A stretch of 6,588 nucleotides of DNA from positions 1 through 6,588 of the IMG/VR virus record IMGVR_UViG_2548876940_000021; one strand, 5' to 3'. Shown piece by piece: positions 273 through 6,588 of the stretch (position 1 is the stretch's first letter; the number at the start of each line of letters is the position of its first letter). The notes beneath the pieces are model-generated. The model searched no databases. It was not told where the DNA came from and was given only the letters and a program-made list of their open reading frames with translations. This DNA is from a virus. Lineage: Duplodnaviria > Heunggongvirae > Uroviricota > Caudoviricetes. The translations under genes and the position numbers were made by a program.

Positions 273-376
273 GTTTTACAGATAACTGGTCAGACGAAGA
301 ATTCATTCGTCAGATGAAAGAAATGCTCAATCAGCATAAAGAACAGGAGAAAGATGATGATTCTGACTCTGAATGA
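269..376 (+). CDS. Small acidic hypothetical protein, 35 aa
   Basis: ATG at 269-271 overlaps the upstream TGA at 270-272 (ATGA coupling). Translation MSFTDNWSDEEFIRQMKEMLNQHKEQEKDDDSDSE has an acidic tail. Support is positional only. Confidence 0.3.
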   Translation: MSFTDNWSDEEFIRQMKEMLNQHKEQEKDDDSDSE

Positions 377-665
377 TAAGCGTGAAATATCGCAAATCAT
401 CGCAAGTTTTACCGATGAAGATTACGAGCGAATCAACAGTGAAGTTGATCGCCTCTGCAAACGTTGCGACCCAATAAGCGAAATGCTTCGCTCATATAAA
501 CCAGATGAACACACTAAGGACGCTATCGACTGGCTGGAAGATGATGACTGTAACTATCAGGAAAAAGCCGCTGAATGGTTCTGGGATGCAATAACCGAAA
601 GAGTTAAGGCTGAATATGCCTTCGCAATATTCAAACGCAGACATATTTATGGAGAAGCTGCATGA
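354..665 (+). CDS. Hypothetical phage early protein, 103 aa, at the position held by gam in lambda
   Basis: ORF with AGGAG at 345-349 and ATG at 354 or 357. Its stop TGA (663-665) overlaps the recT ATG (662-664). I see no recognisable similarity to lambda Gam. Confidence 0.6.
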   Translation: MMILTLNDKREISQIIASFTDEDYERINSEVDRLCKRCDPISEMLRSYKPDEHTKDAIDWLEDDDCNYQEKAAEWFWDAITERVKAEYAFAIFKRRHIYGEAA

Positions 666-1573
666 GCAATATCGTTGAATTCGTTAAACAGCAAGAGCAG
701 TTATTCTGCGGAGCATTGACTGAACAGACGGTGACATGGGCTAAGGAAAGCCAGTTTGCAATTCAGTATTTCCAGAAAAACGATTACCTGGCTAAAACGG
801 CACTGGCAAATCCAACCAGCGCACAGAACGCCATCATCAATGTTGCGGCGATCGGCATCACCTTAAACCCGGCCAGCAAACTGGCTTATCTGGTTCCGCG
901 CGACGGCATGGTGTGCCTTGATATCAGTTATATGGGATTGCTCCATATTGCAATGGAGTCTGGTGTTATCTCATGGGGTCAGGCAAAACTTGTTCATGCT
1001 AACGATACCTATGAGTCAAACGGGCTTGATAAAGCACCAACCCATAAATACAACGCCTTCGGTGATCGTGGTGATATCGTTGGCGTTTACTGCACAGTTA
1101 AGACGCCAGCAGGTGATTATCTAACGGAAGAGATGAGTCTGGCTGAAATTGAGGCTGTAAGGAAAACAAGCAAGGCGGCATTCAGCGATAAAGGACCATG
1201 GGTAAATCACTGGAATGAGATGGCGCGAAAGACGGTCGTAAAGCGTGCAAGCAAGTATTGGCCTAAGGCATCACGTCTTGATAGTGCTATTCACGTACTA
1301 AACGAAGAAGAAGGTGTGTGGACTGAACCAGTTATGCCGCACAAATCAGAGGAAGATATCCGCGAAGATGAACGGAAACGCCAGCAGGAAATAACGGATA
1401 AAGCACAACTTCTTTGTGATGAAATGGCTCATGCTGAAAACATGGATGATTTGAAGCGATATTTTGCAGAAGCATATCGCCTGACATCTGGAATGAAATT
1501 GCAGCAGAACGTACAAGCCATTTACGCAGAATGCAAAGCGAAACTGGAGGTTGCCAGTGAGCAAACTGTATGA
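662..1573 (+). CDS. recT: RecT-family single-strand annealing protein (Bet/RecT recombinase), 303 aa
   Basis: GGAG at 651-654 then ATG at 662. The segment GPWVNHWNEMARKTVVKRASKYWP matches the conserved RecT motif (Rac RecT GPWVTHWEEMAKKTAIRRLFKYLP, recalled). Size and operon position are appropriate. Confidence 0.9.
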   Translation: MSNIVEFVKQQEQLFCGALTEQTVTWAKESQFAIQYFQKNDYLAKTALANPTSAQNAIINVAAIGITLNPASKLAYLVPRDGMVCLDISYMGLLHIAMESGVISWGQAKLVHANDTYESNGLDKAPTHKYNAFGDRGDIVGVYCTVKTPAGDYLTEEMSLAEIEAVRKTSKAAFSDKGPWVNHWNEMARKTVVKRASKYWPKASRLDSAIHVLNEEEGVWTEPVMPHKSEEDIREDERKRQQEITDKAQLLCDEMAHAENMDDLKRYFAEAYRLTSGMKLQQNVQAIYAECKAKLEVASEQTV

Positions 1574-2039
1574 AATTGCCAATGAATACGCAAAATTGAT
1601 GGATTCAGATTTAGAACCAGAGATGATTGCTGACACAATAGAAGGCATGGAAGGAGAATTTACCGATAAAATAGAGCAACTTCTTTCCGTCATTAAAAAT
1701 GAATCTGGTTATGCCGAACGCCTCAAGGAAGAGGCAAAGTCACTGAATGAGCGAGCCGCAGTAATTCAAAATAAGATTGACAGCATTATGGCGTATATAG
1801 CGTCATCGCTTGAAATGGTTGGCAAGAAAAAGATTCGAGCAGGTATTCACCAGGTAACAATCCGCAAACCGTCAGAAACTGTAGAAATCATCGACTCAAG
1901 CGCCCTTCCTCCTGAATACGTTGAGTTTGAAACGACAATTAAAGCCGACAAACTGGCAATCAAACACCAACTAAAAGCAGGAATAAATATCCCCGGCGCT
2001 CAACTCAAAGTTGGGAAACCTTCACTTCTTATCAAATAA
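1557..2039 (+). CDS. Gp157-family phage protein (Sipho_Gp157-like), about 160 aa
   Basis: GGAGG at 1546-1550 then GTG at 1557 gives an N-terminus MSKLYEIANEYAKL, the characteristic MSKLYEL..Y start of Gp157-family proteins, followed by a coiled-coil-like region. It overlaps the recT 3' end. The ORF track's TTG at 1551 is in the same frame. Confidence 0.75.
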   Translation: MSKLYEIANEYAKLMDSDLEPEMIADTIEGMEGEFTDKIEQLLSVIKNESGYAERLKEEAKSLNERAAVIQNKIDSIMAYIASSLEMVGKKKIRAGIHQVTIRKPSETVEIIDSSALPPEYVEFETTIKADKLAIKHQLKAGINIPGAQLKVGKPSLLIK

Positions 2040-2050
2040 CGGTATCGACT

Positions 2051-2365
2051 ATGAAAAAGACTCCATGGGAGAAATGGGAAGTCGATTTCTTGCGCGAAGT
2101 ATCGGCGACAATGCCAGTTGAAGTTATCGCTGAAAAACTGGAAAGGACTGAAAAAGCAGTAATGGCGAAAGCAACAAGGATTGGTGCTGACATTGTTAGT
2201 CGACTTCGTGGAAGACGCTGGACAAGAGCCGAAGTATCACTTTTCGGTAAGTTCTCCGCAGAAGAAATAGCAATTGCAACCTGCCGCTCAATTTATTCAG
2301 TAAGGGCTATGCGATACAAGCTAAAAAAACTCGATGAAGAAAGAGCGGGCATACGAATAAATTAA
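2051..2365 (+). CDS. Small putative DNA-binding protein with two tandem HTH-like repeats (sigma-70 region 4 / Myb-like), 104 aa
   Basis: Two internal repeats of about 40 aa: [40 protein letters not shown] and [40 protein letters not shown]. Each carries an EIA..L..S/T...V-type recognition-helix pattern. Confidence 0.6.
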
Positions 2366-2381
2366 CAAAGAGGAATTTACC

Positions 2382-2549
2382 ATGAGAGGGCTTGCATACA
2401 ATCCCGGCATTCTTCCGGCAGAAATGATTATTCGCCAACGCGTAAAGCCAATGCCATCGAGAGAGGAATTGCTTAAGAGAAATTCTTTTCCGTCAGTAAA
2501 TCAAAACAAATATCTGAATGCGATGTGGCGCAAAGGAGGCAAGCAGTGA
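2382..2549 (+). CDS. Small hypothetical protein, 55 aa
   Basis: AGAGGA at 2369-2374 then ATG at 2382. Its stop TGA (2547-2549) overlaps the GTG start of the next gene (GTGA). Below the ORF-track cutoff. Confidence 0.45.
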
Positions 2550-2845
2550 GTGTATATCTTATTGATAAACGTCGACGTGGGCAACAAATACCACCTGTAG
2601 GAATTCCGAATCACACATGGTTTTGCGTACTTGATATCGATGGTATGGATGCGTTGGTTGACACTCGTCATTACTGCGATACCGCAACAGCTACTCCGGC
2701 GAAAGCAAAGAAAATGGCTGCTCTGATAGAAAACTGGACTCCACCTGATGGTTGGTGCAATGGGAATGATCGAGATTGGCATGAAAAAATGAAGGGCTAT
2801 ATCTGCGATTTCTTACGTAAATGCAACGGCTTCAGGGTGATGTGA
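2546..2845 (+). CDS. Hypothetical Cys/His-containing phage protein, 99 aa
   Basis: AGGAGG at 2534-2539 then GTG at 2546 six nt downstream. The ORF-track start at 2525 is the same frame, but 2546 has the better ribosome-binding site. Several Cys and His residues suggest possible metal binding. Confidence 0.6.
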
Positions 2846-2846
2846 C

Positions 2847-3485
2847 ATGAACAAGATTGACTATCAGGCACTGCGTGAAGCGGCAGAAAAAGCAACGTGT
2901 GGTGTGTGGTCGCTCGAATATGGAGAGGAGAGATTTGATGCTGGTGATGCGCTAATTCATCGTGACGTTGTTGGATATCTTCCCATTTGCAGAATTGAAG
3001 GAGCGCATCCAGAAAGCGGTTTCGATGAAGATTTCCAAATAGAACAGCAGGCCAATGCTGAATTCATCGCCGCAGCCAATCCGGCTACCGTCTTGGCGCT
3101 GCTTGGCGAGCTGGAAGCAGCAAAAAAGCGCATAGCAGAACTGGAAGCCGAACCTGTAAGCCAAACTTGCAAGTTGAACGAGCCATCGGGCAACTCTCCG
3201 GTAACTCCGGATGGTTGGATAAGCTGTAGTGAGCAGATGCCTGTAATCGGCGAGCTAAATTGGAGAACTAGTTTTCCTTTACTGGTTACGTGTGAGATCG
3301 GCGTTATACCTGCTTATTACGGCTTTGTGAGCGTTAATGGTGATAGGCATTATGGCTTTATGGAGAGTCTTAAATACGGAGACGATAACGGCAACCATCC
3401 TCAAACTAATGAATATGGTCTGATTAGCAATGTCACACACTGGATGCCTCTACCAGAACCGCCTCAGGAGGTTAACCGTGGCTAA
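2847..3485 (+). CDS. Ead/Ea22-like family protein with C-terminal DUF551-like domain, 212 aa
   Basis: N-terminus MNKIDYQALREAAEKAT..ANAEFIAAANPATVLALLGELEAAKKRIAELEA is typical of the Ead/Ea22-like N-region. The C-terminus ends ..VTHWMPLPEPPQ, the hallmark end of DUF551 proteins in enterobacterial prophages. Confidence 0.8.
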   Translation: MNKIDYQALREAAEKATCGVWSLEYGEERFDAGDALIHRDVVGYLPICRIEGAHPESGFDEDFQIEQQANAEFIAAANPATVLALLGELEAAKKRIAELEAEPVSQTCKLNEPSGNSPVTPDGWISCSEQMPVIGELNWRTSFPLLVTCEIGVIPAYYGFVSVNGDRHYGFMESLKYGDDNGNHPQTNEYGLISNVTHWMPLPEPPQEVNRG

Positions 3486-3759
3486 TCTGCAGCTTGCCGT
3501 TAAAGGTGAATACTTCGATGCCATGATTCGCGGTGAGAAAACGGAAGAGTATCGCTTGTGTAATGACTACTGGAATAAGCGAATTATGTTCCGGGAGTAT
3601 GACCGCCTGATTATCACAAAGGGATATCCGAAGCGCGACGACTTCAGTCGCAGAATTGATGTTCCGTATGACGGATATGAAATCAAGACAATCACACATC
3701 CCCACTTCGGCGATAAACCGGTAAAGGTGTTCGCGATAAAGGTGAATATCAATTGCTAA
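3478..3759 (+). CDS. ASCH/PUA-like domain protein, 93 aa
   Basis: AGGAGG at 3466-3471 then GTG at 3478, overlapping the upstream stop. The N-terminal motif LAVKGEYFDAMIRGEKTEEYR fits the ASCH GxKxxExR signature. The ORF-track start at 3430 would overlap the previous gene by 56 nt and is less likely. Confidence 0.65.
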   Translation: MANLQLAVKGEYFDAMIRGEKTEEYRLCNDYWNKRIMFREYDRLIITKGYPKRDDFSRRIDVPYDGYEIKTITHPHFGDKPVKVFAIKVNINC

Positions 3760-4611: not shown

Positions 4612-4812
4612 ATGCAACACGAACTACAACCTGATTCACTGGTTGATTTGAAATTCATCATGGCCGATACTGGCTTCGGTAAAACCTTCATCTATGACCG
4701 GATTAAGTCCGGCGACCTGCCAAAAGCCAAAGTTATCCACGGGCGAGCAAGATGGTTATATCGTGACCATTGTGAATTCAAAAATAAGCTCTTAAGCCGC
4801 GCCAATGGGTAA
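4612..4812 (+). CDS. AlpA-family / excisionase-like HTH regulatory protein (Xis candidate), 66 aa
   Basis: GGAG at 4599-4602 then ATG at 4612. The translation LVDLKFIMADTGFGKTFIYDRIKSGDLPKAKVIHGRARWLYRDHCEFKNKLL follows the AlpA/Xis HTH pattern (..tG.s..tiY.li..G.fP.p.k.g.r..W...ev..w). It is the last gene of the + strand operon. Confidence 0.75.
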   Translation: MQHELQPDSLVDLKFIMADTGFGKTFIYDRIKSGDLPKAKVIHGRARWLYRDHCEFKNKLLSRANG

Positions 4813-4828
4813 AATAGCGGGTAAAATA
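4807..4828 (+). repeat. Tandem direct repeat GGGTAAAATA x2 (period 12) spanning the AlpA-like stop codon
   Basis: Read directly: GGGTAAAATA at 4807-4816 and again at 4819-4828, separated by GC. This is where recombinase arm-type or regulator binding sites might be expected. Confidence 0.6.
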
Positions 4829-4861
4829 TTTCTCACATCTAAAAAACTCCATTCCAATCAA

Positions 4862-4895
4862 TCCCCTGCCGCTTCAAGTAGATGTCTGCAGGGGA
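4862..4895. repeat. Perfect 8-bp inverted repeat TCCCCTGC / GCAGGGGA with an 18-nt spacer
   Basis: Read directly: 4862-4869 and 4888-4895 are reverse complements. No T-tract follows, so it looks more like a protein-binding or recombination site than a terminator. Confidence 0.55.
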
Positions 4896-5288
4896 CACCA
4901 GATACCCTTCAAACGAAATCTACCTTCACCCCGTAAAAGATAGGTTTGGCAGCACACTTGCCTTATATCTACTCATTTTTACTGCAACAGGTTGAAATCT
5001 CAGCACTGTCAGAAAGCGCTGATGACTAAACAGCCCTGGGCCGGGCGATGTAACCATCACACAGAATCCTGATAGCGAAATATGGCGTGACTCGATACTT
5101 CACTCCGCAATGCATTCCTTGATGAATTCGCAGGACCGTGATACACGGGACAGGTCGCTGAATGACGACAATGTCCTGGAAATCAGCGAACCGCGCATCT
5201 GAAGTACATTTGAGCGACTGTACCAGAACATGAATGAGGCGTTTGGATTAGGTGATTATTAGCAGGGCTAAGCACTTTAGTATTATTA

Positions 5289-5332
5289 TTTTCCGGTTGA
5301 GGGATAGGGAGATATCGACAACAACCGGAAAA
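5289..5332. repeat. Perfect 11-bp inverted repeat TTTTCCGGTTG / CAACCGGAAAA with a 22-nt spacer, 9 nt beyond the MFS gene stop; possible terminator or junction element
   Basis: Read directly: 5289-5299 and 5322-5332 are reverse complements. It sits between convergent transcription units, and neither strand has a clean U-tract after it. Confidence 0.45.
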
Positions 5333-5340
5333 GTTTACGT

Positions 5341-6588
5341 CTATATTGCTGAAGGTACAGGCGTTTCCATAACTATTTGCTCGCGTTTTTTACTCAGGAA
5401 GAAAATGCCAAATAGCAACATCAGGCAGACAATACCCGAAATTGCGAAGAAAACTGTCTGGTAGCCTGCGTGGTCAAAGAGTATCCCAGTCGGCGTTGAA
5501 AGCAGCACAATCCCAAGCGAACTGGCAATTTGAAAACCAATCAGAAAGATCGTCGACGACAGGCGCTTATCAAAATTTGCCACGCTGTATTTGAAGACGG
5601 ATATGACACAAAGTGGAACCTCAATAGCATGTAACAGCTTCACTAATGAAATAATCCAGGGGTTAACGAACAGCGCGCAGGAAAGGATACGCAACGCCAT
5701 AATCACAACACCGATAAGTAATGCATTTTTTGGCCCTACCCGATTCACAAAGAAAGGAATAATCGCCATGCATAGCGCTTCGAGTACCACCTGGAATGAG
5801 TTGAGATAACCATACAGGCGCGTTCCTACATCGTGTGATTCGAATAAACCTGCATAAAAGACAGGAAAAAGTTGTTGATCAAAAATGTTATAGAAAGACC
5901 ACGTCCCCACAATAAATATGACGAAAACCCAGAAGTTTCGATCCTTGAAAACTGCGATAAAATCCTCTTTTTTTACCCCTCCCGCATCCGCCGCTACGCA
6001 CTGGTGATCCTTATCTTTAAAACACATGTTGATCATCATAAATACAGCGCCAAATAGCGAGACCAACCAGAAGTTGATATGGGGACTGATACTAAAAAAT
6101 ATGCCGGCAAAGAACGCGCCAATAGCATAGCCAAAAGATCCCCAGGCGCGCGCTGTTCCATATTCGAAATGAAAATTTCGCGCCATTTTTTCGGTGAAGC
6201 TGTCAAGCAAACCGCATCCCGCCAGATACCCCAGGCCAAAAAAGAGCGCCCCCAGAATTAGACCTACAGAAAAATTGCTTTGCAGTAACGGTTCATAAAC
6301 GTAAATCATAAACGGTCCGGTCAAGACCAGGATGAAACTCATACACCAGATGAGCGGTTTCTTCAGACCGAGTTTATCCTGAACGATGCCGTAGAACATC
6401 ATAAATAGAATGCTGGTAAACTGGTTGACCGAATAAAGTGTACCTAATTCCGTCCCTGTCAACCCTAGATGTCCTTTCAGCCAAATAGCGTATAACGACC
6501 ACCACAGCGACCAGGAAATAAAAAAGAGAAATGAGTAACTGGATGCAAAACGATAGTACGCATTTCTGAATGGAATATTCAGTGCCAT
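5341..6588 (-). CDS. MFS transporter, LacY-like oligosaccharide:H+ symporter family, 415 aa
   Basis: Long minus-strand ORF whose ATG is the last three bases of the window. The translation is hydrophobic throughout with about 12 predicted membrane spans. Motifs match LacY as recalled: GIVQDKLGLKKPLIW against LacY GLLSDKLGLRKYLLW, and FNIFDQQ...GTRLYGY...NRVGPKNALL against LacY YDVFDQQ...GTRVFGY...NRIGGKNALL. Confidence 0.85.
   Translation of the reverse strand: MALNIPFRNAYYRFASSYSFLFFISWSLWWSLYAIWLKGHLGLTGTELGTLYSVNQFTSILFMMFYGIVQDKLGLKKPLIWCMSFILVLTGPFMIYVYEPLLQSNFSVGLILGALFFGLGYLAGCGLLDSFTEKMARNFHFEYGTARAWGSFGYAIGAFFAGIFFSISPHINFWLVSLFGAVFMMINMCFKDKDHQCVAADAGGVKKEDFIAVFKDRNFWVFVIFIVGTWSFYNIFDQQLFPVFYAGLFESHDVGTRLYGYLNSFQVVLEALCMAIIPFFVNRVGPKNALLIGVVIMALRILSCALFVNPWIISLVKLLHAIEVPLCVISVFKYSVANFDKRLSSTIFLIGFQIASSLGIVLLSTPTGILFDHAGYQTVFFAISGIVCLMLLFGIFFLSKKREQIVMETPVPSAI

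What the first reader, a model, noticed from the sequence alone, without database searches (positions are those of the whole stretch)
2051..2845. Three-gene accessory block: tandem-HTH protein, a 55-aa ORF and a Cys/His-rich 99-aa ORF
A small protein with two HTH-like repeats is followed by two short ORFs, the second overlapping the first by GTGA. None has an obvious role in phage development. A DNA-binding protein followed by tightly coupled small proteins is the layout seen in toxin-antitoxin and small defense or anti-defense modules in ea regions. This is speculative but worth testing.
Basis: inference. Interest (0 to 1): 0.4.

Follow-up and report, generated by a model that had tools for sequence, protein, structure and literature searches.

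The report
Three unrelated mosaic prophage genes
The three small genes are real, but they are not a toxin-antitoxin or defence unit: they are three separately shuffled, already catalogued genes of the early-left operon of a P22/lambda-like E. coli prophage, and one of them belongs with the phage recombination genes next door.

Summary
The ORFs exist as described: G1 at 2051-2365 (104 aa), G2 at 2382-2549 (55 aa) and G3 at 2546-2845 (99 aa, GTGA overlap). They lie in the PL operon of a lambdoid prophage between a RecT/MuGam-like recombination module and the ea/xis region.

- **G1** is predicted as two three-helix HTH units. It falls in PHROG 323 with P22 Abc1. It and its distant relatives are always the last gene of a phage recombination module, of at least four different types.
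- **G2** is Pfam DUF2737 (P22 orf56, Sf6 gp23, named similar to HK97 gp38 and HK620 HkaI). It matches 702 phage records, including virulent Jersey-like phages.
- **G3** is Pfam DUF7739 (Sf6 gp22). It is a free-standing accessory gene, and its Cys and His residues are mostly not conserved.

The trio is not inherited as a unit. No phage record holds at least 80% of the block, and only 33 of 1475 E. coli genomes with any part of it do. G1 and G3 assort independently (Fisher p=0.72). G3 lies directly after G2 in only 33 of 80 G3 loci. The same GTGA junction at the end of G2 starts at least seven unrelated downstream gene families. There are no defence-system hits and no internal promoter.

Verdict: ordinary lambdoid mosaicism, low interest. 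The Abc1-like link of G1 to recombination modules is a modest by-product.

The parts
354..665 (+). Context: 103-aa gene of unknown function at the head of the recombination module, overlapping recT by ATGA.
   Evidence: A homologue precedes RecT in every locus architecture listed for the G1 loci. A similar ~102-103-aa gene sits in the same position in SEN22 and in the P0035 contigs, though similarity was not tested there.
662..1573 (+). Context: RecT-family single-strand annealing protein.
   Evidence: Pfam RecT E=2.8e-32; phrog_148.
1551..2039 (+). Context: Siphovirus Gp157 / Mu Gam-like end-protection protein. The likely start is the GTG at 1557, judged from the 483-bp length of the RefSeq homologues.
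   Evidence: Pfam Sipho_Gp157 E=9e-37; phrog_253 'Mu Gam-like end protection'.
2051..2365 (+). G1: 104-aa basic (pI 10) protein of two HTH units, Abc1-like. It is the distal member of the recombination module.
   Evidence: phrog_323 E=2.6e-19, the same PHROG as P22 Abc1 at E=1.3e-23. AF2 gives two three-helix bundles. The family HMM scores Abc1 at 20.7 bits against a maximum of 11.5 in 2000 shuffles. RecT and Gp157 lie upstream in 79 of the 80 G1-anchored loci, with none scored as lacking them.
2366..2389 (+). G1-G2 spacer with the G2 ribosome-binding site (AAAGAGGAA, 2367-2375). This is the left mosaic joint of G2.
   Evidence: In 77 of 80 G2-anchored loci, DNA homology to the window begins at 2370-2389. 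A DUF5405 gene is inserted here in 37 of 79 G1 loci that carry both G1 and G2, giving a spacing of 294 nt instead of 16 nt.
2382..2549 (+). G2: DUF2737, a 55-aa very basic (pI 11) peptide. It equals P22 orf56 and Sf6 gp23, and record notes call its homologues similar to HK97 gp38 and HK620 HkaI.
   Evidence: Pfam PF10930 at 109 bits. 702 phage records match. Purifying selection. Names come from record annotations.
2535..2549 (+). Generic junction inside the end of G2: SD GGAGG (2535-2539), the GTG start of the next gene (2546-2548) and the TGA stop of G2 (2547-2549). This is the right mosaic joint.
   Evidence: Homology ends at 2540-2559 in 58 of 80 loci. In all 77 loci where a downstream ORF was called, it starts at this GTG, and those ORFs belong to at least seven unrelated families.
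2546..2845 (+). G3: DUF7739, a 99-aa alpha/beta protein (Sf6 gp22; hkaH is annotated under the CUS-3 match). It is a free-standing accessory gene.
2847..3485 (+). Context: Ead/Ea22-like N-terminus fused to a DUF551 C-terminus, the next variable accessory gene.
   Evidence: Pfam Ead_Ea22 E=2e-21 and DUF551 E=1.7e-11.

Best explanation
The 'block' is a juxtaposition of three independently assorting genes inside the long early-left (PL) transcript of a P22/lambda-like prophage. It is not a functional three-gene system.

- **G1** is the last gene of the recombination module (103-aa gene, RecT, MuGam-like Gp157, G1). It is a two-HTH protein of the same PHROG as P22 Abc1. Inferred: it binds DNA through two LuxR/sigma-70-region-4-like units and assists phage recombination or the handling of RecBCD, as genetics reported for Abc1.
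- **G2** (DUF2737) is a widely conserved, very basic 55-aa peptide that follows the recombination module in lambdoid phages. Its biochemical role is unknown. Shown: its two ends are sharp mosaic joints, and its last codons carry the Shine-Dalgarno sequence and the GTG start used by whatever gene has been recombined in behind it.
- **G3** (DUF7739) is one of several interchangeable accessory genes that can occupy that slot. Inferred from a modest fold resemblance to small protein-binding proteins (DMP12, a CdiI immunity protein, YfbM): it acts alone by binding a host or competitor protein.

All three would be made early in lytic growth or after induction, not from the repressed prophage.
For: Not inherited as a unit:
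- 0 of 170 matching phage records hold at least 80% of the 795 bp. Records carry either G1+G2 (mEpX1, HK140, Gally, Kapi1) or G2+G3 (Sf6, HK75, APC_JM3.2).
- Only 33 of 1475 E. coli genomes with any part hold at least 80%, and many of the listed matches are in 2-3 pieces with extra genes under the match.
- G1 and G3 presence is independent: 4/7/18/46, Fisher p=0.72.
- G3-anchored loci: G2 is adjacent in 33 of 80, lies 300-1400 bp away with inserted genes in 31, and is absent from the upstream flank in 16.
- G1-anchored loci: G3 is present in 13 of 77 and never in the exact contiguous arrangement; DUF5405 sits between G1 and G2 in 37 of 77.

Sharp joints and a generic junction:
- Homology to the window starts at 2370-2389 in 77 of 80 loci and ends at 2540-2559 in 58 of 80.
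- At least seven unrelated families start at the same GTG of CAGTGA.

G1 belongs with the recombination genes:
- RecT and Gp157 lie upstream in 79 of the 80 G1-anchored loci, with none scored as lacking them.
- The G1 homologue of SEN22 follows a RecE-like exonuclease and a further protein.
- A 59%-identical relative follows RecT plus a YqaJ exonuclease, and a three-repeat relative follows Gam, a 167-aa protein and a YqaJ exonuclease.
- P22 abc1 lies between erf and abc2.
- G1 and Abc1 are both in phrog_323, and the G1-family HMM scores Abc1 at 20.7 bits with 0 of 2000 shuffles reaching that score.
- Literature: Abc1 aids recombination and its molecular function is unknown (PMC12315714). Abc1 has an HTH domain, triggered P4-dependent cell death and showed a counter-defence phenotype (preprint 10.1101/2023.04.06.535777).

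G2 and G3 stand alone elsewhere:
- G2 occurs in virulent Jerseyvirus and Kagunavirus genomes, and the one context examined has no recombination gene annotated nearby.
- A G3 relative lies between tail tube and tail protein E genes of a Mu-like phage, and others lie in ~95-kb phages.

No sign of an autonomous cassette: no internal promoter or + strand terminator, no PADLOC hit, no Rfam hit.
Against: - None of the three proteins has a demonstrated biochemical function, so independent function is inferred from assortment only.
- G2 follows G1 in all 77 scorable G1 loci and follows Abc2 in every other G2 locus examined. A functional tie between G2 and recombination modules is therefore not excluded.
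- When G3 is adjacent to G2 it always uses the overlapping start.
- The G1-Abc1 relation is weak: BLASTP finds nothing and hhalign gives 21% probability. It could reflect only a shared common HTH repeat type, since 3452 cluster representatives match the G1 profile.
- The loci sampled are the 80 best matches per query, mostly E. coli prophages, so they are not independent lineages.
- The promoter scan is a simple consensus scan.
Confidence: 0.8

Rival explanations
1. One reading: G1 (an HTH antitoxin or regulator) plus G2 and G3 (toxin or effector) form a toxin-antitoxin-like or small defence/anti-defence operon.
For: The layout fits: a DNA-binding protein followed by two small, tightly packed ORFs with a GTGA overlap. 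The location is in the accessory part of the PL operon.
Against: - The three genes assort independently.
- The GTGA junction is shared by at least seven unrelated downstream genes.
- Other junctions in the operon are just as tight.
- G1 tracks the recombination module upstream, not the genes downstream.
- There are no PADLOC, Pfam or NCBIfam hits to toxin, antitoxin or defence families.
- No internal promoter was found.
- G2 and G3 occur alone in unrelated phage types.
Confidence: 0.04
2. G1 and G2 together are accessory factors of the recombination module, comparable to Abc1 or Arf in P22. Only G3 is an unrelated accessory gene.
For: - G2 follows G1 in 77 of 77 scorable G1 loci.
- G2 follows abc2 in every Abc2-type locus examined.
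- P22 has erf-abc1-abc2-orf56, where orf56 is DUF2737.
- A distant G1 relative is also followed by DUF2737.
- G2 is very basic (pI 11), which is compatible with nucleic-acid binding.
Against: - There is a sharp mosaic joint between G1 and G2.
- DUF5405 is inserted between them in 37 of 77 loci.
- The conserved core of DUF2737 occurs in virulent Jersey-like phages, and the one context examined shows a run of small genes with no recombination gene annotated nearby.
- The three-repeat G1 relative is followed by Dam, not DUF2737.
- A constant position may simply reflect conserved lambdoid gene order.
Confidence: 0.2
3. G2 and G3 form a translationally coupled two-protein pair.
For: Whenever they are adjacent the start and stop overlap (GTGA; 22 of 22 loci). 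The pair is found in Sf6, HK75 and APC_JM3.2.
Against: - G3 has G2 directly upstream in only 33 of 80 G3-anchored loci.
- 58 of 80 G2 loci have another gene in that slot using the same start.
- Distant G3 relatives lie in tail operons and in ~95-kb phages, and the examined PhiKM and ECML-606-1 contexts show no DUF2737 annotation next to them.
Confidence: 0.06
4. G3 is a Cys/His zinc-binding or DNA-mimic protein.
Against: - Only C93 is invariant. The other four Cys and all three His positions vary among relatives, so there is no conserved metal-ligand set.
- The pI is 8.3 with net charge +1.7, unlike acidic DNA mimics.
- The identity to DMP12 is 7%, and there is no sequence-level match to any PDB chain.
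Confidence: 0.05

Closest known systems
P22 Abc1 (anti-RecBCD protein 1; phrog_323 'transcriptional regulator, D5-like')
   Same: - About 95-105 aa and basic.
- Both match phrog_323 strongly. Two HTH units were predicted for G1. The family HMM aligns G1 positions 16-93 to Abc1 residues 13-93, spanning both units.
- Both are encoded inside or at the distal end of the phage recombination module in the PL operon.
   Different: - There is no BLASTP similarity, and hhalign gives only 21% probability.
- Abc1 lies between erf and abc2, whereas G1 follows RecT/MuGam-like, RecE-like or YqaJ-type modules and has no abc2 partner.
- The Abc1 family proper was found almost only in Salmonella, mostly at 88% identity or more.
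- The function of Abc1 is itself unknown (PMC12315714).
Pfam DUF2737 (P22 orf56, Sf6 gp23; HK97 gp38 and HK620 HkaI named in record notes)
   Same: G2 is a full-length member at 109 bits. It is 100% identical to the Sf6 and APC_JM3.2 proteins and shares 40 of 55 residues with P22 orf56.
   Different: Nothing differs; it is a plain member. In the Jersey-like virulent phage examined, only the C-terminal core (PxREELLxRNSFP...NKYLN) is shared.
Pfam DUF7739 (Sf6 gp22; hkaH annotated under the CUS-3 match)
   Same: G3 is a full-length member at 68.7 bits and is 99% identical to Sf6 gp22.
   Different: Nothing differs; it is a plain member. The family has no known function.
Lambda exo-xis region / P22 ea region, and lambdoid mosaic 'boundary sequences'
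   Same: - Same genomic position: between the recombination genes and xis in the PL operon.
- Same character: small, tightly packed, interchangeable genes with joints at gene boundaries.
- The Sf6 record annotates 'boundary sequences' (bsq) in this arm.
   Different: - The lambda exo-xis genes (orf60a, orf63, orf61, ea8.5, recalled from knowledge and not tested here) are other families.
- The G2/next-gene junction described here is not among the boundary sequences annotated in the Sf6 stretch examined.
Type II toxin-antitoxin modules with an HTH antitoxin
   Same: Only the superficial layout is shared: an HTH protein next to small overlapping ORFs.
   Different: The genes are not co-inherited, there is no own promoter, there is no toxin or antitoxin family match, and the overlap is generic.

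Membership tests
Toxin-antitoxin / small defence operon | The component genes are inherited together as a unit. | tested here: not met
   0 of 170 phage records and 33 of 1475 E. coli genomes hold at least 80% of the block. G1 and G3 are independent, p=0.72. G2 is adjacent to G3 in only 33 of 80 G3 loci.
Toxin-antitoxin / small defence operon | Own promoter, allowing expression from the repressed prophage and autoregulation by the HTH component. | tested here: inconclusive
   The consensus scan finds no sigma-70-like promoter in 2040-2850 on the + strand and no + strand terminator in 1500-3600. The scan is crude, and there are no expression data.
Toxin-antitoxin / small defence operon | Homology of a component to known toxin, antitoxin or defence protein families. 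| tested here: not met
   PADLOC gives 0 hits for all three proteins and five neighbours. Pfam and NCBIfam give no toxin or antitoxin family.
Toxin-antitoxin / small defence operon | Toxicity of one component that is neutralised by another. | not testable with these tools
   This needs expression experiments.
P22 Abc1-like proteins (phrog_323) | A significant match to the family profile. | tested here: met
   G1 against phrog_323 gives E=2.6e-19. P22 Abc1 against phrog_323 gives E=1.3e-23.
P22 Abc1-like proteins (phrog_323) | Direct sequence relationship to P22 Abc1 itself. | tested here: inconclusive
   BLASTP finds no alignment. hhalign gives 21% probability, E=0.0011. The G1-family HMM scores Abc1 at 20.7 bits across both repeats, and 0 of 2000 shuffles reach that score.
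P22 Abc1-like proteins (phrog_323) | A small protein made of two HTH units. | tested here: met
   AF2 predicts two three-helix bundles for G1. Repeat 1 of G1 resembles the NarL HTH, E=0.0095. Abc1 hits Sigma70_r4_2 above the Pfam cut-off.
P22 Abc1-like proteins (phrog_323) | Encoded within or at the end of the phage recombination module. | tested here: met
   RecT and Gp157 lie upstream in 79 of the 80 G1-anchored loci. The same holds for SEN22 and for distant relatives next to other module types. P22 abc1 lies between erf and abc2.
P22 Abc1-like proteins (phrog_323) | Contribution to phage recombination or modulation of RecBCD. | not testable with these tools
   Genetic evidence exists only for P22 Abc1 (PMC12315714, which cites Murphy 1987 and Poteete 1991).
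Pfam DUF2737 (PF10930) | A score above the Pfam gathering threshold over the full model. | tested here: met
   109.2 bits against a cut-off of 25, matching model positions 1-51 of 53.
Pfam DUF7739 (PF24881) | A score above the Pfam gathering threshold. | tested here: met
   68.7 bits against a cut-off of 27, matching model positions 4-92 of 98.
DNA mimic proteins (DMP12-like) | A similar fold. | tested here: inconclusive
DNA mimic proteins (DMP12-like) | A strongly acidic, DNA-like charge distribution. | tested here: not met
   G3 has pI 8.3 and net charge +1.7 at pH 7.
Cys/His zinc-binding small phage proteins | A conserved set of Cys/His metal ligands. | tested here: not met
   Only C93 is invariant among 19 relatives. 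The other four Cys and all three His positions vary.

The most novel reading that the evidence does not exclude
Two linked readings remain open.
- G1-type tandem-HTH proteins, with P22 Abc1 as the founding case, could be an unrecognised but regular terminal component of otherwise very different lambdoid recombination modules: RecT+MuGam, RecE-like, RecT+YqaJ, Gam+YqaJ and Erf+Abc2.
- The DUF2737 gene behind those modules could double as a fixed 'docking site'. Its last 15 nt provide the ribosome-binding site and start codon for any accessory gene recombined in, which would make it a built-in exchange point for accessory (possibly counter-defence) cargo such as DUF7739.
Probability: 0.25. Interest if true: 0.4.

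Novelty: already known. Interest (0 to 1): 0.15.

Why it matters
It matters little as a discovery. All three genes are 98-100% identical to genes in published phage genomes (Sf6, Kapi1, mEpX1, HK75) and belong to catalogued families (PHROG 323, DUF2737, DUF7739).

The useful outcome is negative. A layout that looks like a toxin-antitoxin or defence cassette is here produced by ordinary lambdoid mosaicism and generic start/stop overlaps.

Two modest leads remain:
- The Abc1-like tandem-HTH gene tracks recombination modules of several types. The 2025 survey of lambdoid recombination modules mentions Abc1 only for P22.
- The end of DUF2737 is a conserved junction at which many different accessory genes are swapped.

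Tried and rejected
**G1 versus Abc1**
- BLASTP of G1 against P22 Abc1 found no alignment.
- hhalign of the G1 alignment against Abc1 was weak, 21% probability.
- A homologue search for Abc1, meant to build a second profile, returned almost only Salmonella sequences, mostly at 88% identity or more. They were too narrow to help.

**G1 structure and repeat**
- Foldseek of the G1 model against the PDB gave no hit with E of 0.001 or better. The weak top hits were mostly HTH DNA-binding domains, including bipartite ones such as Pax paired domains, Tc3/Mos1 transposases and a CRISPR-repeat-binding protein.
- Self-alignment of the two G1 halves was not significant.

**G3**
- Foldseek against BFVD gave no annotated relative.
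- The afdb50 library was unavailable.
- A sequence profile of G3 against the PDB gave no hit at E up to 10.
- The zinc-finger and DNA-mimic ideas were rejected on conservation and charge.

**Library and feature scans**
- NCBIfam gave nothing meaningful, PADLOC nothing and Rfam nothing.
- No tRNA was found in the window.
- A repeat search for possible G1 operator sites found only short two-copy matches.

**Literature**
- A search for DUF2737 or DUF7739 returned one unrelated phage-therapy paper.
- Peptide strings from the three proteins were absent from the supplements of the two accessory-gene screening papers.

**Annotation check**
- The Gally record's label 'Anti-RecBCD protein 1' for the G1 homologue was treated as a lead, not as evidence.

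Full report
**Setting.** The window is the left arm of a lambdoid prophage of E. coli.
- A single + strand chain of tightly packed genes runs from a kil-like ORF through a 103-aa gene (354-665), RecT (662-1573) and a Siphovirus-Gp157/Mu Gam-like protein (1551-2039).
- The three ORFs of the finding come next.
- They are followed by an Ead/Ea22-DUF551 protein, an ASCH-like protein, two small ORFs and a TorI/AlpA-type excisionase (4612-4812).
- Host DNA with the sucrose permease gene cscB on the - strand follows.
- The best whole-window matches are E. coli chromosomes (88% coverage at most), where the same genes carry RefSeq names.

**Observation.** The three ORFs are real.

G1 (2051-2365, 104 aa, pI 10):
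- AlphaFold2 predicts two three-helix units joined by a linker (pLDDT 81; pTM 0.45, which probably reflects an unfixed relative orientation of the two units).
- Relatives with a third unit exist.
- A profile of the family finds 3452 cluster representatives, many with 4-11 matched stretches.
- Repeat 1 weakly resembles the NarL/LuxR HTH (E=0.0095).
- The two halves are not significantly similar within this one sequence.

G2 (2382-2549, 55 aa, pI 11):
- It is a full-length member of Pfam DUF2737 (109 bits).
- It is under purifying selection (19 synonymous and 15 non-synonymous codon differences against P22 orf56).

G3 (2546-2845, 99 aa):
- It starts at the GTG that overlaps the G2 stop, 6 nt after GGAGG.
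- It is a member of Pfam DUF7739, and most full-length relatives are 99 aa long.
- Its Cys and His content is not a family trait; only C93 is invariant.

**Are the three a unit?** They are not.
- No phage record among the 170 that match the 795 bp covers 80% of it. Phages carry either G1+G2 (mEpX1, HK140, Gally, Kapi1) or G2+G3 (Sf6, HK75, APC_JM3.2).
- Of 1475 complete E. coli genomes with any part, 33 have at least 80%. Many of the listed matches are in 2-3 pieces with extra genes under the match.

I fetched 80 IMG/VR loci anchored on each gene and scored neighbours by tblastn.
- G1 and G3 presence is independent: 4/7/18/46, Fisher p=0.72.
- G3 has G2 directly upstream in 33 of 80 loci, further upstream with 300-1400 bp inserted in 31, and not within the flank in 16.
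- G1 loci carry G3 in 13 of 77 cases, never in the exact contiguous arrangement of the window.
- G1 loci have a DUF5405 gene between G1 and G2 in 37 of 77 cases.

**Joints.**
- In G2-anchored loci, DNA homology to the window begins at 2370-2389 in 77 of 80 and ends at 2540-2559 in 58 of 80. G2 is therefore a discrete mosaic unit.
- In all 77 loci where a downstream ORF could be called, it starts at the same GTG of ...GGAGGCAnnCAGTGA.
- Those ORFs fall into at least seven unrelated families: an Ea22-like protein of ~315 aa, DUF7739, and proteins of 84, 214, 87, 161 and 74 aa.
- Comparable overlaps occur at 103-aa gene/RecT (ATGA) and at the likely Ea22/ASCH junction.
- No promoter-like site lies within the block, and no + strand terminator-like site lies in 1500-3600.
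- PADLOC, NCBIfam and Rfam give nothing.

**What G1 is.**
- G1 and P22 Abc1 both match phrog_323 (E=2.6e-19 and 1.3e-23).
- The direct relation is weak. BLASTP finds nothing and hhalign gives 21%.
- An HMM of G1 plus its two-repeat relatives scores Abc1 at 20.7 bits across both repeats. The best of 2000 shuffles scores 11.5.

The stronger argument is position.
- G1 follows RecT and Gp157 in 79 of the 80 G1-anchored loci, with none scored as lacking them.
- Its 90%-identical homologue in SEN22 follows a RecE-like exonuclease and another protein.
- A 59%-identical relative follows RecT and a YqaJ exonuclease.
- A three-repeat relative follows lambda-type Gam, a 167-aa protein and a YqaJ exonuclease.
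- P22 abc1 sits between erf and abc2.

According to Zheng et al. 2025 (PMC12315714), Abc1 aids but is not essential for recombination, and its molecular function is unknown. The HK140-type module is a RecT-type annealing protein plus MuGam. A preprint screen (10.1101/2023.04.06.535777) reports that Abc1 has an HTH domain, triggers P4-dependent cell death in one strain and shows a broad counter-defence phenotype.

I therefore read G1 as an Abc1-like DNA-binding accessory of the recombination module. The link to the module is shown by association. The DNA binding and the role in recombination are inferred.

**What G2 is.**
- DUF2737 equals P22 orf56 and Sf6 gp23. Record notes call its homologues similar to HK97 gp38 and HK620 HkaI.
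- tblastn finds it in 702 phage records. Most are Salmonella and Escherichia phages, and they include many virulent Jerseyvirus and Kagunavirus genomes. There only the core (PxREELLxRNSFP...NKYLN) is shared, and the gene lies in a run of small genes with no recombination gene annotated nearby.
- In lambdoid phages it follows the recombination module, after abc2, G1 or DUF5405.
- Its biochemical role is unknown.
- A tie to recombination is possible. I rate it as the main rival at 0.2.

**What G3 is.**
- The model is confident (pLDDT 89).
- G3 is slightly basic and has no sequence-level PDB relative. A DNA-mimic role is therefore unlikely, and a small protein-binding role is only a guess.
- It occurs in 21 phage records. 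Distant copies lie between tail tube and tail protein E genes of a Mu-like phage and in ~95-kb phages. This is the behaviour of a free-standing accessory gene.

**Verdict.**
- The interpretation as a co-functional toxin-antitoxin, defence or anti-defence unit is not supported, although 'accessory' is fair and G1 has a remote link to an anti-RecBCD-associated gene.
- Everything here is already catalogued and nearly identical to genes of published phages, and the arrangement is the product of ordinary lambdoid mosaicism.
- Interest is low. The only leads of some value are the regular association of Abc1-like tandem-HTH genes with diverse recombination modules, and the conserved exchange junction at the end of DUF2737.

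Noticed in passing
window 4800-4900 (core about 4876-4891): This appears to be the prophage end. Similarity to the Sf6 attP region, including the annotated attP core (ctgcaggggacacca), runs to about 4890 and then stops. As in Sf6, attP lies between the xis-like gene and int, so the integrase would be at the other end of the prophage and is absent from the window. No tRNA gene is present in the window.
   Followed up: partly
window 5341-6588 (- strand) and 4892-5340: Host DNA. RefSeq annotates the homologous gene as an oligosaccharide MFS transporter next to cscA, which I recognise as the sucrose permease CscB. RefSeq genomes also annotate a short DUF4942 fragment in the homologous spacer between the prophage end and this gene.
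   Followed up: partly
window 354-665: A 103-aa gene of unknown function (no Pfam hit) overlaps recT by ATGA. A homologue precedes RecT in every locus architecture listed for the G1 loci. A gene of similar size (~102-103 aa) sits in the same position before the RecE-like gene of SEN22 and before RecT in the P0035 contigs, although similarity was not tested there. It may be another unrecognised partner of the recombination module.
   Followed up: partly
window 3430-3759: The ASCH-like ORF is listed from an ATG at 3430, which overlaps the Ea22 gene by 56 nt. The PHROG profile match begins at residue 17, and a GTG at 3478 preceded by AGGAGG would give an 8-nt overlap with the Ea22 stop. The true start is probably 3478.
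   Followed up: partly
window 2847-3485: The gene after G3 is a fusion of an Ead/Ea22-like N-terminal half and a DUF551 C-terminal half. It matches about 20 different PHROGs piecewise, so it is itself mosaic within the gene.
   Followed up: no
L172-L251 (IMG/VR loci), between the G1 and G2 homologues: About half of the G1-bearing prophages carry a DUF5405 gene (Sf6 gp24 type, phrog_154 'replication initiation protein') inserted exactly in the 16-nt G1-G2 spacer. The spacing is either 16 nt or 294 nt and nothing else was seen.
   Followed up: partly
one search hits (e.g. P0100, P0102, P0155): The HTH unit of G1 (W-x2-E-x2-L ... IA-x2-tGRS-x2-aV-x2-KR) recurs 4-11 times in proteins of up to ~900 aa from unknown organisms. 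Pfam matched G1 only marginally (HTH_12, 21.5 bits against a cut-off of 21.4).
   Followed up: no
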